A DNA stretch of 64,000 nucleotides from Escherichia coli (lineage in GTDB: Bacteria > Pseudomonadota > Gammaproteobacteria > Enterobacterales > Enterobacteriaceae), in assembly GCF_016026235.1 (NCBI RefSeq), contig NZ_CP065613.1; one strand, given 5' to 3'. The notes under the pieces are model-generated. The model did no database searches and was not told where the DNA came from. It worked only from the letters and a program-made list of their open reading frames with translations. Both the position numbers and the translations under genes were made by a program. Position 1 is the stretch's first letter. Each line of letters begins with the position of its first letter. Below are positions 13,906 through 62,308 of this stretch, piece by piece.

Positions 13906-14019
13906 GGGGGCTCTGTTGGTTCTCCCGCAACGCTACTCTGTTTACCAGGTCAGGTCCGGAAGGAAGCAGCCAAGGCAGATGACGCGTGTGCCGGGATGTA
14001 GCTGGCAGGGCCCCCACCC
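13906..14019 (+). ncRNA. ffs: 4.5S RNA (signal recognition particle RNA)
   Basis: 114 nt GGGGGCUCUGUUGG...GGCAGGGCCCCCACCC read directly; matches the E. coli 4.5S RNA as I recall it. Confidence 0.93.
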
Positions 14020-29549: not shown

Positions 29550-31481
29550 ATGAGTTATCAGGTCTTAGCCCGAAAATGGCGCCCACAAACCTTTGCTGAC
29601 GTCGTCGGCCAGGAACATGTGCTGACCGCACTGGCGAACGGCTTGTCGTTAGGGCGTATTCATCATGCTTATCTTTTTTCCGGCACCCGTGGCGTCGGAA
29701 AAACCTCTATCGCCCGACTGCTGGCGAAGGGGCTAAACTGCGAAACCGGCATTACCGCGACGCCGTGCGGCGTGTGCGATAACTGTCGTGAAATCGAGCA
29801 GGGGCGCTTTGTCGATCTGATTGAAATCGACGCCGCCTCGCGCACCAAAGTTGAAGACACTCGCGACCTGCTGGATAACGTCCAGTACGCTCCGGCGCGT
29901 GGTCGTTTCAAAGTTTATCTGATCGACGAAGTGCATATGCTGTCGCGCCACAGCTTTAACGCATTGTTAAAAACCCTTGAAGAGCCGCCGGAGCACGTTA
30001 AGTTTCTGCTGGCGACGACCGATCCACAGAAATTGCCGGTGACGATTTTGTCACGCTGTCTGCAATTTCATCTCAAGGCGCTGGATGTCGAGCAAATTCG
30101 CCATCAGCTTGAGCACATCCTCAACGAAGAACATATCGCTCACGAGCCGCGGGCGTTGCAATTGCTGGCGCGCGCCGCTGAAGGCAGCCTGCGAGATGCC
30201 TTAAGTCTGACCGACCAGGCGATTGCCAGCGGTGACGGCCAGGTTTCAACCCAGGCGGTCAGTGCGATGCTGGGTACGCTTGACGACGATCAGGCGCTGT
30301 CGCTGGTTGAAGCGATGGTCGAGGCCAACGGCGAGCGCGTAATGGCGCTGATTAATGAAGCCGCTGCCCGTGGTATCGAGTGGGAAGCGTTGCTGGTGGA
30401 AATGCTCGGCCTGTTGCATCGTATTGCGATGGTACAACTTTCGCCTGCTGCACTTGGCAACGACATGGCCGCCATTGAGCTGCGGATGCGTGAACTGGCG
30501 CGCACCATACCGCCGACGGATATTCAGCTTTACTATCAGACGCTGTTGATTGGTCGCAAAGAATTACCGTATGCGCCGGACCGCCGCATGGGCGTTGAGA
30601 TGACGCTGCTGCGCGCGCTGGCGTTCCATCCACGTATGCCTCTGCCTGAGCCAGAAGTGCCACGCCAGTCCTTTGCGCCCGTCGCGCCAACGGCAGTAAT
30701 GACGCCAACCCAGGTGCCGCCGCAACCGCAATCAGCGCCGCAGCAGGCACCGACTGTACCGCTCCCGGAAACCACCAGCCAGGTGCTGGCGGCGCGCCAG
30801 CAGTTGCAGCGCGTGCAGGGAGCAACCAAAGCAAAAAAGAGTGAACCGGCAGCCGCTACCCGCGCGCGGCCGGTGAATAACGCTGCGCTGGAAAGACTGG
30901 CTTCGGTCACCGATCGCGTTCAGGCGCGTCCGGTGCCATCGGCGCTGGAAAAAGCGCCAGCCAAAAAAGAAGCGTATCGCTGGAAGGCTACCACTCCAGT
31001 GATGCAGCAAAAAGAAGTGGTCGCCACGCCGAAGGCGCTGAAAAAAGCGCTGGAACATGAAAAAACGCCGGAACTGGCGGCGAAGCTGGCGGCAGAAGCC
31101 ATTGAGCGCGACGCGTGGGCGGCACAGGTGAGTCAACTTTCGCTACCAAAACTGGTCGAACAGGTGGCCTTAAATGCCTGGAAAGAGGAGAGCGACAACG
31201 CAGTATGTCTGCATTTGCGCTCCTCTCAGCGGCATTTGAACAACCGCGGTGCACAGCAAAAACTGGCTGAAGCGTTGAGCATGTTAAAAGGTTCAACGGT
31301 TGAACTGACTATCGTTGAAGATGATAATCCCGCGGTGCGTACGCCGCTGGAGTGGCGTCAGGCGATATACGAAGAAAAACTTGCGCAGGCGCGCGAGTCC
31401 ATTATTGCGGATAATAATATTCAGACCCTGCGTCGGTTCTTCGATGCGGAGCTGGATGAAGAAAGTATCCGCCCCATTTGA
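29550..31481 (+). CDS. dnaX: DNA polymerase III subunits tau and gamma
   Basis: ORF track 643 aa; Walker A GTRGVGKTS. Confidence 0.97.
   Translation: MSYQVLARKWRPQTFADVVGQEHVLTALANGLSLGRIHHAYLFSGTRGVGKTSIARLLAKGLNCETGITATPCGVCDNCREIEQGRFVDLIEIDAASRTKVEDTRDLLDNVQYAPARGRFKVYLIDEVHMLSRHSFNALLKTLEEPPEHVKFLLATTDPQKLPVTILSRCLQFHLKALDVEQIRHQLEHILNEEHIAHEPRALQLLARAAEGSLRDALSLTDQAIASGDGQVSTQAVSAMLGTLDDDQALSLVEAMVEANGERVMALINEAAARGIEWEALLVEMLGLLHRIAMVQLSPAALGNDMAAIELRMRELARTIPPTDIQLYYQTLLIGRKELPYAPDRRMGVEMTLLRALAFHPRMPLPEPEVPRQSFAPVAPTAVMTPTQVPPQPQSAPQQAPTVPLPETTSQVLAARQQLQRVQGATKAKKSEPAAATRARPVNNAALERLASVTDRVQARPVPSALEKAPAKKEAYRWKATTPVMQQKEVVATPKALKKALEHEKTPELAAKLAAEAIERDAWAAQVSQLSLPKLVEQVALNAWKEESDNAVCLHLRSSQRHLNNRGAQQKLAEALSMLKGSTVELTIVEDDNPAVRTPLEWRQAIYEEKLAQARESIIADNNIQTLRRFFDAELDEESIRPI
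30833..30839 (+). other. dnaX: dnaX programmed -1 ribosomal frameshift heptamer A AAA AAG (yields gamma; -1 frame stops at TGA 30842-30844), followed by GC-rich stem-loop
   Basis: Slippery heptamer and downstream hairpin CCGGCAGCCGCTACCCGCGCGCGGCCGG read directly; mechanism is established for E. coli dnaX. Confidence 0.85.
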
Positions 31482-38900: not shown

Positions 38901-38985
38901 CGTAGGCCAGCTAAGGCGTTCACGCCGCATCTGGCATTTTGCTCTCAATGCCTGATGCGACGCTGGCGCGTCTTATCAGGCCTAC
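38901..38985. repeat. REP elements downstream of gsk
   Basis: GCCTGATGCGACGCTGGCGCGTCTTATCAGGCCTAC type palindromic units. Confidence 0.7.
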
Positions 38986-44659: not shown

Positions 44660-44743
44660 ACACCGTCGCTTAAAGTGACGGCATAATAATAAAAAAATGA
44701 AATTCCTCTTTGACGGGCCAATAGCGATATTGGCCATTTTTTT
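44660..44743 (+). ncRNA. chiX: ChiX (MicM/SroB) small RNA
   Basis: About 84 nt ACACCGUCGCUUAAAGUGACGGCAUAAUAAUAAAAAAAUGAAAUUCCUCUUUGACGGGCCAAUAGCGAUAUUGGCCAUUUUUUU in the ybaK-ybaP intergenic region, ending in a terminator hairpin plus U-tract; recognised from memory. Confidence 0.88.
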
Positions 44744-46037: not shown

Positions 46038-46275
<238 letters not shown>

Positions 46276-60286: not shown

Positions 60287-60302
60287 TGACTGGTGTTAGA
60301 TT

Positions 60303-60602
<300 letters not shown>

Positions 60603-60703
60603 TGAACAGTGTGCATTTTGGCAATAAATCTGAAACCAACTGTCATGTCGGTTTTTTAAAGGCCGAAGGTGGTAAACCTTCGGCCTTAGCTACGTTTCCT
60701 CAG

Positions 60704-60787
60704 TTATTCAATAAACTGACGGATCAGTTCCAGCAGCGCGATTAGCGCCTTAAGCACGATGAGAACTTTATCGAGAAAAGTTTTCAT
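60704..60787 (-). CDS. candidate type I toxin: 27 aa hydrophobic/amphipathic peptide MKTFLDKVLIVLKALIALLELIRQFIE (DinQ/TisB-like)
   Basis: Hand-translated ORF with strong SD AAGGGAG 6 nt upstream of ATG, SD embedded in perfect palindrome CTCCCTTAAGGGAG; central ALIALLELIR segment resembles DinQ as I recall it; not in the ORF track (under 60 aa). Confidence 0.45.
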   Translation of the reverse strand: MKTFLDKVLIVLKALIALLELIRQFIE

Positions 60788-61046
60788 CCGTTGCTCCCTT
60801 AAGGGAGAAAGACAATCACAGCTTACCCTTACGTTGCCTGTAACTATGATTTTCTTCATGTGCTAGATGAGGACTGCCTCTCTCCAAATTAGAGCACCAG
60901 AATCAGCACCACCTGTATCCTGACCAGGACTTAAAAGTACTTTTCCGCACTGCGGTAATCCCTTGAGGCAGTATCACTACTAGCGTCGGGATTGTATCGC
61001 CAACATAGCTGTTTGAATATGTAGGCATCCTGACTTATAATTCACT

Positions 61047-61137
61047 TGCTAGATGAGGACTGTTTCATTTCTGCCCGGAACCACCAAGTCTTGGGCGGAA
61101 AAAATAAAAAAACCGACTGTCATGTCGGTTTTTTTAT
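61047..61137 (+). ncRNA. candidate antitoxin sRNA (about 90 nt), divergent from the toxin ORF; its 5' end carries a 16 nt box identical to 60861-60876 and hence complementary to the minus-strand toxin leader
   Basis: Near-consensus sigma70 promoter TTGAAT (61013-18), 17 nt spacer, TATAAT (61036-41); transcript would start about 61044-61048 and end at hairpin AACCGAC-TGTCAT-GTCGGTT plus 7 T (61111-61137). Confidence 0.45.
61111..61137. terminator. bidirectional Rho-independent terminator (A-tract, hairpin, T-tract) shared by selU (minus) and the candidate sRNA (plus)
   Basis: AAAAAAACCGAC TGTCAT GTCGGTTTTTTT read directly. Confidence 0.75.
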
Positions 61138-61198
61138 ATCTGTATTCTGGTGCAACCATTCTGTTCTCACGACAATCGCCGTTTCAGAATACCGCCCA

Positions 61199-62308
<1,110 letters not shown>

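What the first reader, a model, noticed from the sequence alone, without database searches (positions are those of the whole stretch)
60704..61137. Candidate type I toxin-antitoxin module (27 aa DinQ/TisB-like peptide plus divergent sRNA) in the ybbP-selU gap
Between the REP cluster after ybbP and the selU terminator lies a 27-codon minus-strand ORF (MKTFLDKVLIVLKALIALLELIRQFIE) with a strong SD at ideal spacing. About 75-90 nt upstream in its leader is a 16 nt box (60861-60876) repeated exactly at the 5' end of a divergent plus-strand transcript (61047-61062) that has a near-perfect sigma70 promoter and an intrinsic terminator. This matches the architecture of tisB/istR-1, shoB/ohsC, zorO/orzO and dinQ/agrB, where a divergently encoded sRNA pairs with the toxin 5' UTR. 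The peptide core ALIALLELIR resembles E. coli DinQ as I recall it, but the locus is not at the dinQ position (arsR-gor in K-12), so it may be an unannotated paralogous module. Weaknesses: I could not find a convincing promoter for the toxin mRNA, and both elements are too small for the ORF track.
Basis: partly seen in the sequence, partly recalled or inferred. Interest (0 to 1): 0.85.

Follow-up and report, generated by a model that had tools for sequence, protein, structure and literature searches.

The report
Second DinQ/AgrB toxin-antitoxin copy
The ybbP-selU gap holds a real but already catalogued second copy of the E. coli DinQ/AgrB type I toxin-antitoxin module: a 27-residue membrane peptide gene plus a divergent small antisense RNA, carried by about a quarter of E. 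coli strains and apparently without SOS (LexA) control.

Summary
The 27-codon minus-strand ORF (60704-60787) passes NCBI's DinQ model: NF041472, 40.9 bits against a cut-off of 30. RefSeq already annotates it as "dinQ" at this locus. The locus occurs in 1332 of 5426 complete E. coli genomes. The plus-strand RNA (61047-61137) passes Rfam's AgrB model: 53.6 bits against a gathering score of 40. The toxin side of the locus (terminator, ORF, 5' UTR and promoter region) aligns with K-12 dinQ at 73% and the sRNA gene with agrA/agrB at 80%. The canonical gor-arsR copy is in 5422 of 5426 genomes, so this is an accessory paralogue. Its peptide type (..IVLKALIALLELIRQFI[DE]) also occurs in Serratia, on ICEs and on plasmids. 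Kristiansen et al. 2016 described such dinQ-like (dql) genes. Across seven loci, the 5' end of each sRNA co-varies with its own mRNA target. Three features are specific to this copy. It has no LexA box. Its exact complementarity is only 16 nt, or 20 nt with G-U pairs. About 15% of carrier genomes have lost the toxin start and Shine-Dalgarno sequence but kept the sRNA. Expression and toxicity are untested.

The parts
60704..60787 (-). Toxin ORF of 27 aa plus stop: MKTFLDKVLIVLKALIALLELIRQFIE, a DinQ-family (DqlA-type) peptide.
   Evidence: NF041472 toxin_DinQ scores 40.9 bits against a cut-off of 30. The peptide shares 15 of 19 residues with K-12 DinQ. PGAP annotates the same ORF. pN/pS is 0.14-0.31 against relatives.
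60794..60798 (-). Shine-Dalgarno GGGAG (element 4), 6 nt upstream of the ATG.
   Evidence: Read directly from the sequence. It aligns with the K-12 dinQ GGAG.
60803..60811 (-). Element 3 (CUUUCUCCC). It can pair either with the Shine-Dalgarno sequence or with element 2.
   Evidence: Homologous to K-12 sequence 3. The pairings appear in the predicted folds.
60861..60880 (-). sRNA target in the toxin 5' UTR: the 16-nt exact box (60861-60876) plus 4 G-U or Watson-Crick pairs that reach into element 2 (GAGGCAGU, 60873-60880).
   Evidence: Cognate co-variation across loci.
60788..60984 (-). Predicted toxin 5' UTR of 197 nt. Its 5' leader (GCUAG at 60984-60980 and ACUGCCUC at 60972-60965) can pair with the same site that the sRNA targets.
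   Evidence: Aligns with the K-12 dinQ +1 transcript, whose UTR is 194 nt. Full-length minimum-free-energy fold. The 5' end is inferred, not mapped.
60991..61017 (-). Candidate toxin promoter: -10 TACAAT (60996-60991) and -35 TTCAAA (61017-61012) with a 15-nt spacer. The -35 overlaps the sRNA's -35 back-to-back.
   Evidence: A -10 of the form TA(T/C)NAT sits in the same alignment columns in all six loci, 6 nt before G(T/C)TAG. The simple consensus scan did not call it.
60655..60687 (-). Toxin mRNA terminator: hairpin GGCCGAAGG / CCTTCGGCC followed by UUU.
   Evidence: Inverted repeat I2. Homologous to the dinQ terminator region.
61013..61041 (+). sRNA promoter TTGAAT-17-TATAAT.
   Evidence: 10 of 12 consensus positions matched.
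61047..61137 (+). AgrB-like antisense sRNA of about 90 nt: a 5' pairing tail, an internal stem-loop and an intrinsic terminator at 61104-61137.
   Evidence: Rfam RF02891 AgrB scores 53.6 bits against a gathering score of 40. Folding z-score is -4.7. Stems are kept with compensatory changes across 9 homologues.
60633..60657 (+). 25-nt direct repeat (24 of 25 identical) of the sRNA terminator, abutting the toxin terminator. It may be a vestige of a neighbouring agr copy, or it may be the ybbP terminator.
   Evidence: Repeat family D1. No further similarity lies upstream of it.

Best explanation
This is an accessory chromosomal paralogue of the E. coli dinQ/agrB type I toxin-antitoxin system. Its peptide is of the dinQ-like 'Dql' kind, closest to ..IVLKALIALLELIRQFI[DE].

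Proposed mechanism, inferred by homology with dinQ:
1. A minus-strand mRNA of about 330 nt starts near 60984 and carries a 197-nt leader.
2. In the full-length transcript, the 5' leader (GCUAG...ACUGCCUC) pairs with GAGGCAGU...CUAGC. This leaves the Shine-Dalgarno GGGAG closed against CUUUCUCCC, so the mRNA is not translated.
3. Removing the 5' leader would free the middle element to pair with the anti-SD element, which opens the ribosome-binding site.
4. The divergent AgrB-like sRNA of about 90 nt (61047-61137) has the same 5' sequence as the leader. It pairs in trans with that same site (16 Watson-Crick pairs, 20 with G-U). This re-closes the Shine-Dalgarno sequence and probably triggers RNase III cleavage.
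5. If the 27-residue hydrophobic peptide is made, it would insert into the inner membrane and depolarise it.

Unlike dinQ proper, this copy has no LexA operator, so its transcription is probably independent of the SOS response.

What is shown here: family membership of both genes, the locus architecture, cognate complementarity, and conservation of the peptide and of the sRNA fold. What is inferred: transcription, the 5' ends, processing, the structural switch and toxicity.
For: - Toxin model: NCBIfam DinQ model passed. Relatives, including a 51-residue protein 98% identical to the extended window ORF (P0001), carry precomputed PF28061 DinQ.
- sRNA model: Rfam AgrB passed.
- Locus homology: the toxin side is 73% identical to K-12 dinQ and the sRNA 80% identical to agrA/agrB, with the same order and orientation.
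- UTR length: 197 nt here against 194 nt in K-12. A conserved -10 sits at the homologous position.
- Duplex strength: the sRNA with its own mRNA gives -55.9 kcal/mol. 500 shuffled sRNAs give -26.3 +/- 3.2, with a best value of -39.6.
- Co-variation: across 7 loci each sRNA fits its own target best. Cognate pairs have 0-1 unpairable positions in 20, against 1-5 for non-cognate pairs. Contiguous-pairing lengths point the same way.
- Concerted change: the T-to-C change of GTTAG to GCTAG is present together in the window's sRNA, its target site and its mRNA 5' end.
- sRNA fold: stems are kept through compensatory changes.
- Peptide: under purifying selection, pN/pS 0.14-0.31.
- Experimental support for relatives: DinQ/AgrB in PMC3567139 and PMC5066626, and plasmid DqlB/agrB in PMC12365149 and PMC12317039.
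Against: - There is no expression or toxicity evidence for this copy.
- Exact complementarity is 16 nt, against 24 contiguous in K-12.
- The candidate toxin promoter has a weak -35 and was not called by the consensus scan.
- Thermodynamic folding did not clearly reproduce an open Shine-Dalgarno sequence in truncated transcripts. The effect was also small in the K-12 positive control.
- 197 of 1332 carrier genomes lack the toxin start, Shine-Dalgarno sequence and box. The toxin is therefore dispensable and may be decaying.
- Compared with DinQ, the peptide has an extra Lys inside the hydrophobic stretch and lacks three C-terminal hydrophobic residues (FLL).
Confidence: 0.85

Rival explanations
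1. The module is a decaying relic. The toxin gene is no longer expressed or no longer toxic, and what persists is mainly an orphan AgrB-like sRNA. That sRNA may have been recruited to other targets, including the canonical dinQ mRNA.
For: About 15% of carriers have deletions that remove the toxin start, Shine-Dalgarno sequence and box, or the toxin 3' end, while the sRNA gene stays intact. Complementarity is shortened to 16 nt. The toxin -35 is weak. Thanks to G-U wobble, the window sRNA can form 12 contiguous pairs with K-12 dinQ, at -47.3 kcal/mol. An orphan OrzP antitoxin precedent exists in MG1655 (PMC11264685).
Against: In 1135 genomes the ORF, Shine-Dalgarno sequence and box are intact at 95% identity or more. 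The ORF shows purifying selection against distant relatives. The concerted GCTAG change in the sRNA, the target and the leader argues that pairing has been maintained recently.
Confidence: 0.12
2. The real product is the 51-residue in-frame extension (ATG at 60859), not the 27-residue peptide.
For: An uninterrupted frame runs from 60859. Some assemblies annotate forms of 50-59 residues.
Against: That ATG has no Shine-Dalgarno sequence. In the alignment the upstream ATG-to-start segment differs from the Serratia, ICE and K-12 loci by indels that are not multiples of three, so the extended frame cannot be conserved in them. This was read from the alignment, not translated. The DinQ model covers only residues 29-50. 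PGAP calls the 27-residue form. The conserved (M/V)K start with GGAG spacing is shared by all relatives.
Confidence: 0.02
3. The 16-nt box is a chance or generic repeat, and the two elements are unrelated.
For: None beyond its short length.
Against: None of 100 shuffles reached the observed count. The box lies at the homologous positions in both the AgrB and the dinQ alignments. It co-varies across loci.
Confidence: 0.01

Closest known systems
E. coli K-12 dinQ / agrB (with agrA), gor-arsR intergenic region (Weel-Sneve 2013, PMC3567139; Kristiansen 2016, PMC5066626)
   Same: Both have a 27-residue peptide with the core IVL.ALIALLELIR. Both have a 5' UTR of about 195 nt with the four pairing elements, and a divergent, non-overlapping sRNA whose 5' end pairs with the UTR across element 2. 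The sRNA fold and terminators are homologous, and the toxin terminator is homologous.
   Different: The locus is ybbP-selU, which K-12 fills with the RhsD element. There is one sRNA instead of two. There is no LexA operator. Exact pairing is 16 nt against 24. The peptide has 2 extra N-terminal residues, Lys in place of Gly in the hydrophobic stretch, and a 3-residue (FLL) deletion. The start codon is ATG instead of GTG.
dql (dinQ-like) genes of Kristiansen et al. 2016; DqlA-type peptides in Serratia chromosomes, Salmonella/Enterobacter ICEs and plasmids
   Same: The peptide type is the same (..DKVLIVLKAL[IV]ALLELIRQFI[DE]). The sRNA is AgrB-like at 46-74 bits. The promoter layout is the same back-to-back arrangement, and none has a promoter LexA box.
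   Different: DNA identity is only about 70-73%. The window copy sits in a core-genome gap with no mobile-element genes. Its box sequence (GCTAGATGAGGACTG) is unique. I could not verify whether this exact locus is among the 14 dql sequences of the paper, because the figure and supplement are not held.
Plasmid DqlB / agrB (pOXA-48, IncX3 pOXA-484; PMC12365149, PMC12317039)
   Same: It belongs to the same superfamily and has the same sRNA-on-5'-UTR logic. It has been shown experimentally to be toxic, to be rescued by agrB, and to stabilise plasmids.
   Different: The window peptide fails the DqlB model (24.5 bits against a cut-off of 35). DqlB has a 35-nt complementary region and acts as a plasmid-addiction module.
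tisB/istR-1, zorO/orzO, shoB/ohsC
   Same: All share the general architecture: a small hydrophobic toxin, a long 5' UTR, and a divergent trans-encoded sRNA that pairs upstream of the ribosome-binding site.
   Different: There is no sequence-family match. OrzO-P scores 19-24 bits against a gathering score of 60, and only DinQ-type models hit the peptide.

Membership tests
DinQ/AgrB type I TA family (including Dql) | The peptide matches the curated DinQ protein model. | tested here: met
   NF041472 scores 40.9 bits against a cut-off of 30. BLASTP against K-12 DinQ gives 15 of 19 identities. Relatives carry PF28061.
DinQ/AgrB type I TA family (including Dql) | The partner RNA matches the AgrB covariance model (sequence plus structure). 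| tested here: met
   RF02891 scores 53.6 bits against a gathering score of 40, over model positions 1-84. Stems are kept with compensatory changes.
DinQ/AgrB type I TA family (including Dql) | The sRNA is encoded divergently, 5' of the toxin mRNA and without overlapping it. | tested here: met
   The sRNA starts near 61047 (+) and the toxin +1 lies near 60984 (-), a gap of about 62 nt. Five other loci have the same layout.
DinQ/AgrB type I TA family (including Dql) | The sRNA 5' end is complementary to the 5' UTR upstream of the ribosome-binding site, covering sequence element 2. | tested here: met
   16 Watson-Crick pairs, or 20 with G-U, at mRNA nucleotides 105-124. Duplex energy is -55.9 kcal/mol against -26.3 +/- 3.2 for shuffles. 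Pairing is shorter than in K-12 (24 contiguous).
DinQ/AgrB type I TA family (including Dql) | Four UTR elements give mutually exclusive structures: Shine-Dalgarno closed in the full-length mRNA and open in the processed mRNA. | tested here: inconclusive
   Homologous elements with pairing potential are present, and the full-length fold closes the Shine-Dalgarno sequence (P unpaired 0.02). Truncated forms open it only slightly (0.09). The K-12 control also shifts weakly, from 0.11 to 0.21.
DinQ proper (damage-inducible orthologue) | A LexA operator overlaps the promoter. | tested here: not met
   There is no CTG-N10-CAG anywhere in 60600-61200. K-12 and E. albertii have CTGTATGATTATCCAG at -200, and the window has none.
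DinQ proper (damage-inducible orthologue) | Located in the gor-arsR intergenic region. | tested here: not met
   The module lies between ybbP and selU/mnmH. The canonical copy is present separately in 5422 of 5426 genomes.
DinQ/AgrB type I TA family (including Dql) | Peptide overexpression is toxic or depolarising, and the sRNA rescues it. | not testable with these tools
   Known for DinQ (PMC3567139) and DqlB (PMC12365149, PMC12317039), not for this copy.
DqlB subfamily | The peptide matches the NF041473 DqlB model. | tested here: not met
   24.5 bits against a cut-off of 35.
ZorO/OrzO and other E. coli type I families | The sRNA or peptide matches that family's models. | tested here: not met
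   OrzO-P scores 24.1 and 19.5 bits against a gathering score of 60. The NCBIfam scan at E<=1 returned only the two DinQ-type families.

The most novel reading that the evidence does not exclude
The ybbP-selU copy is an SOS-independent DinQ-family module in which the sRNA is more important than the toxin. The toxin is being lost by deletion in some lineages, while the retained sRNA, whose A-to-G changes allow G-U wobble, cross-represses the canonical LexA-controlled dinQ mRNA. That would alter the SOS-linked DinQ response in a quarter of E. coli strains.
Probability: 0.12. Interest if true: 0.45.

Novelty: already known. Interest (0 to 1): 0.22.

Why it matters
The practical value is mainly for annotation. 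The toxin ORF is already named in RefSeq, but its partner sRNA is not annotated. The product name "damage-inducible" is probably wrong for this copy, because no LexA box is present. Biologically, the locus gives a natural comparison within one genome. One DinQ-family module is under SOS control and one is not, and each has a distinct cognate sRNA seed. Natural toxin-deletion alleles also exist. Together these could be used to study antitoxin specificity, cross-talk and the decay of chromosomal type I systems. None of this changes current understanding of the family.

Tried and rejected
Only E. albertii, Pantoea, Serratia and E. coli loci were relevant.
- The tool's Pfam-A copy found nothing for the 51-residue form, although related proteins in the collection, including one 98% identical to that form, carry precomputed PF28061 DinQ. 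The most likely reason, which I did not check, is that the tool's Pfam copy predates PF28061.
- Thermodynamic folding of full-length and 5'-truncated mRNA, with and without masking of the sRNA site, did not give a clean Shine-Dalgarno open/closed switch. The K-12 positive control was also weak, so I treat this as inconclusive.
- The supplement and Fig. 3 sequences of Kristiansen 2016 are not held. I therefore could not check whether this exact locus is one of their 14 dql genes.
- A LexA half-site-like sequence, CTGTTTGAATATGTAG at 61009-61024 (the 16-nt core of the 20-mer reported at 61007-61026), lacks the CAG arm and was rejected as an operator.
- I looked for a remnant of the module in K-12 and found none. 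Only the ybbP and selU ends match.
- I found no recent plasmid source. True plasmid relatives are only about 71-73% identical, and the three best hits in 'plasmids' are records of 1.2-4.9 Mb, that is, chromosome-sized.

Full report
**Observation.** On the minus strand, 60704-60787 encodes MKTFLDKVLIVLKALIALLELIRQFIE. A GGGAG Shine-Dalgarno sequence lies 6 nt upstream of the ATG. The 16-mer TGCTAGATGAGGACTG occurs exactly at 60861-60876 and at 61047-61062. In the whole 64-kb window only one further site exists, with 3 mismatches, and none of 100 dinucleotide shuffles reached three matches. The repeat extends to 22 nt at 91% identity. The second copy sits just downstream of a TTGAAT-17-TATAAT promoter at 61013-61041. 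It is followed by a 14-bp hairpin with a U-run at 61104-61137. Both copies are on the same DNA strand and the two transcripts are divergent, so the two RNAs are complementary at the box.

**What it is.** Both halves pass curated family models.
- The peptide scores 40.9 bits on NCBIfam NF041472 "damage-inducible type I toxin DinQ" (cut-off 30). It fails the sister model NF041473 DqlB, at 24.5 bits against 35.
- It shares 15 of 19 residues with K-12 DinQ over the core.
- The plus-strand RNA at 61049-61137 scores 53.6 bits on Rfam RF02891 AgrB (gathering score 40), full length over model positions 1-84.
- It folds well, with a z-score of -4.7.
- Nine aligned homologues keep the internal stem and the terminator, with compensatory changes at 3 of 20 pairs.

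Aligned with the K-12 gor-arsR locus (dinQ, agrA and agrB), the homology covers the whole toxin side: terminator, ORF, 5' UTR and promoter region, at 73% mean column identity. The sRNA gene with its promoter is 80% identical.

**Already annotated.** RefSeq/PGAP annotates this exact 84-nt ORF as "dinQ" (WP_349808740.1) between ybbP and mnmH/selU. No ncRNA feature is listed there for the sRNA.

**Distribution.**
- The locus is found in 1332 of 5426 complete E. coli genomes, always on the chromosome and nearly always at 95% identity or more.
- The canonical gor-arsR dinQ-agr locus is in 5422 of 5426 genomes. The ybbP-selU module is therefore a second, accessory copy.
- In K-12 the whole ybbP-selU spacer is replaced by the RhsD element and IS remnants. 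BLAST finds only the ybbP and selU gene ends and no vestige of the module.
- Peptides of the same subtype (..IVLKAL[IV]ALLELIRQFI[DE]) occur in Serratia chromosomes, in integrative conjugative elements of Salmonella and Enterobacter, and on plasmids. Each has an AgrB-like RNA (46-74 bits) in the same divergent position.
- True plasmid relatives are only about 71-73% identical in DNA.

**Literature.** Kristiansen et al. 2016 (PMC5066626) defined a family of dinQ-like (dql) genes on enterobacterial chromosomes and plasmids. They noted that some strains carry dql genes together with dinQ. T1TAdb later predicted antisense RNAs for those loci (PMC8594479). Two 2025 papers showed that plasmid DqlB/agrB is a functional type I toxin-antitoxin system (PMC12365149 and PMC12317039). 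I found no paper that mentions the ybbP-selU locus specifically. I could not see the dql sequences of the 2016 paper.

**How it most likely works.** In K-12 the GUG start is G195 of the mRNA. That places +1 at L002 position 1983, 6 nt downstream of a TATGAT -10.
- The window aligns TACAAT (60996-60991, minus strand) with that -10. All six aligned loci have TA(T/C)NAT there, followed 6 nt later by G(T/C)TAG. I therefore place the toxin +1 near 60984, which gives a 197-nt UTR against 194 nt in K-12.
- The best -35 is TTCAAA with a 15-nt spacer. It is the reverse complement of the sRNA's -35 region, so the two promoters sit back-to-back. The toxin promoter is weak, and the consensus scan did not call it.
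- The homologues of Kristiansen's elements are present:
  - Element 1: ACUGCCUC, mRNA nucleotides 13-20.
  - Element 2: GAGGCAGU, nucleotides 105-112.
  - Element 3: CUUUCUCCC.
  - Element 4 (Shine-Dalgarno): GGGAG.
- The full-length minimum-free-energy fold pairs the 5' leader (GCUAG...ACUGCCUC) with GAGGCAGU...CUAGC and closes the Shine-Dalgarno sequence.
- The sRNA 5' end resembles that leader and targets the same site. It forms 16 Watson-Crick pairs, or 20 contiguous pairs with G-U, at mRNA nucleotides 105-124. Duplex energy is -55.9 kcal/mol, against -26.3 +/- 3.2 (best -39.6) for 500 shuffled sRNAs.

By analogy with dinQ, the leader locks the primary transcript in cis. Processing would remove that lock. 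The sRNA would then restore closure of the Shine-Dalgarno sequence in trans and mark the duplex for RNase III. My folding of truncated and masked transcripts moved in the expected direction only weakly, as did the K-12 control. I therefore count the switch itself as untested.

**Evidence that the pairing is maintained.** Across seven loci the variable core of the box differs:

| Locus | Box core |
|---|---|
| K-12 | AAGAACUC |
| Window | GAGGACUG |
| E. albertii | GACGACUA |
| Serratia | GUGGACUG |
| ICE sRNA (its target reads GUAAACCG, paired through two G-U) | GUGGACCG |
| Plasmid | GAGUGCUG |

Each sRNA matches its own target, with 0-1 unpairable positions in the first 20. Non-cognate combinations have 1-5, the lowest values lying between the two closely related Serratia loci and the ICE target. 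On the window's toxin mRNA the cognate sRNA gives the longest contiguous pairing: 16 Watson-Crick or 20 with G-U, against at most 7 or 10 for any other sRNA. The window is the only locus with GCUAG instead of GUUAG. The change is present together in the sRNA, in the target and at the mRNA 5' end. This is co-variation between partners, although gene conversion between the repeats could also produce it. The 27-codon ORF shows pN/pS of 0.14-0.31 against the distant relatives, which indicates a protein-coding constraint (only 26 codons).

**What differs from dinQ proper.**
1. There is no LexA operator. No CTG-N10-CAG exists anywhere in 60600-61200. K-12 and E. albertii have CTGTATGATTATCCAG at -200, and none of the DqlA-type loci has one at the promoter. 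PGAP's "damage-inducible" label is thus unsupported for this copy.
2. There is one sRNA rather than the agrA/agrB pair.
3. Exact complementarity is shorter.
4. Relative to DinQ, the peptide has two extra N-terminal residues, Lys in place of Gly in the hydrophobic stretch, and a 9-nt (FLL) deletion near the C terminus. This gives lower hydrophobicity and a larger helical hydrophobic moment.
5. Specificity looks asymmetric. AgrB and AgrA pair poorly with this toxin (7 contiguous Watson-Crick pairs). The window sRNA can form 12 contiguous pairs with canonical dinQ through G-U wobble, at -47.3 kcal/mol. This cross-talk is speculative.

**Population variants.** The segment 60750-60890, which holds the toxin start, the Shine-Dalgarno sequence and the box, is present in 1135 genomes against 1332 with the locus.
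- EC488 and ECO_2_R carry a 108-nt deletion between GATGAG(A/G)AC microhomologies. It removes the first codons, the Shine-Dalgarno sequence and most of the box.
- GF43 lacks 70 nt covering the toxin 3' end and its terminator.
- In all three strains the sRNA gene is intact.

This pattern fits a toxin that is dispensable or counter-selected, and it keeps the "decaying module with an orphan antitoxin" rival alive.

**Verdict.** However, the module belongs to a family that is already described and already modelled in NCBIfam and Rfam, and the toxin ORF is already annotated at this locus in RefSeq. The locus-specific details (no LexA box, short seed, deletion alleles, unannotated sRNA) are modest additions. 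Expression, processing and toxicity remain to be shown experimentally.

Noticed in passing
window 60633-60657 vs 61110-61134: A 25-nt direct repeat (24 of 25 identical) of the sRNA terminator lies on the other side of the toxin gene, 2 nt from the toxin's own terminator hairpin. The whole module is therefore bracketed by this repeat with a spacing of 477 bp. It could be a vestige of a neighbouring agr copy or tandem module, or it could be the ybbP terminator. No further similarity lies upstream of it.
   Followed up: partly
L011 / L012 (EC488, ECO_2_R) and L013 (GF43), aligned to window 60560-61200: Natural deletion alleles exist. A 108-nt deletion between GATGAG(A/G)AC microhomologies removes the toxin start, the Shine-Dalgarno sequence and most of the box. 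A 70-nt deletion removes the toxin 3' end and terminator. The sRNA gene is intact in all three. About 197 of 1332 carrier genomes lack the start/SD/box segment. PGAP still calls a 25-residue 'dinQ' in ECO_2_R.
   Followed up: partly
L002 2064-2145 (K-12 agrA) vs L016 (E. albertii dinQ locus): K-12 AgrA does not repress K-12 dinQ, yet it has 0 unpairable positions in 20 against the E. albertii-type dinQ target. The E. albertii locus shows a single agr copy of that type within the about 700 nt examined upstream of the toxin (the K-12 agrB-equivalent position is inside that range). AgrA may be the cognate antitoxin of another dinQ allele.
   Followed up: no
window 61012-61018: The -35 hexamers of the sRNA promoter (TTGAAT, + strand) and of the candidate toxin promoter (TTCAAA, - strand) overlap back-to-back. 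The TTTGAA core is conserved in the DqlA-type loci. This suggests the two promoters could compete for RNA polymerase.
   Followed up: no
window 60290-60610: A cluster of REP/BIME-type repeats lies between the ybbP stop and the module. It matches Rfam naRNA4 (RF02564, 77-79 bits at 60370-60447 and 60470-60548) and ES036 (60324-60366). The number of REP units differs between strains.
   Followed up: no
window 60704-60859 (-): An in-frame upstream ATG gives a 51-residue ORF. Some assemblies and metagenome gene calls use such 46-59-residue forms (P0001-P0007). The extension lies over the structured 5' UTR. By the alignment its frame is not kept in the Serratia, ICE or K-12 loci, although a few Salmonella and metagenome gene calls (P0005-P0007) keep a similar extension.
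   Followed up: partly
L007-L010 (Salmonella, Enterobacter): The related toxin/sRNA module sits inside an integrative conjugative element, between RAQPRD/DUF3262/DUF2976-family genes and a TraG/TraD-like coupling-protein gene. In L134-L137 it lies on plasmid-like contigs of about 36-42 kb.
   Followed up: no
window 13914-14010, 30814-30878, 44660-44743: Other Rfam gathering-level hits in the window are SRP RNA (ffs), the dnaX frameshift element and sroB. Further naRNA4/REP units lie at 38905 and at 46041-46219. All are ordinary E. coli features.
   Followed up: no
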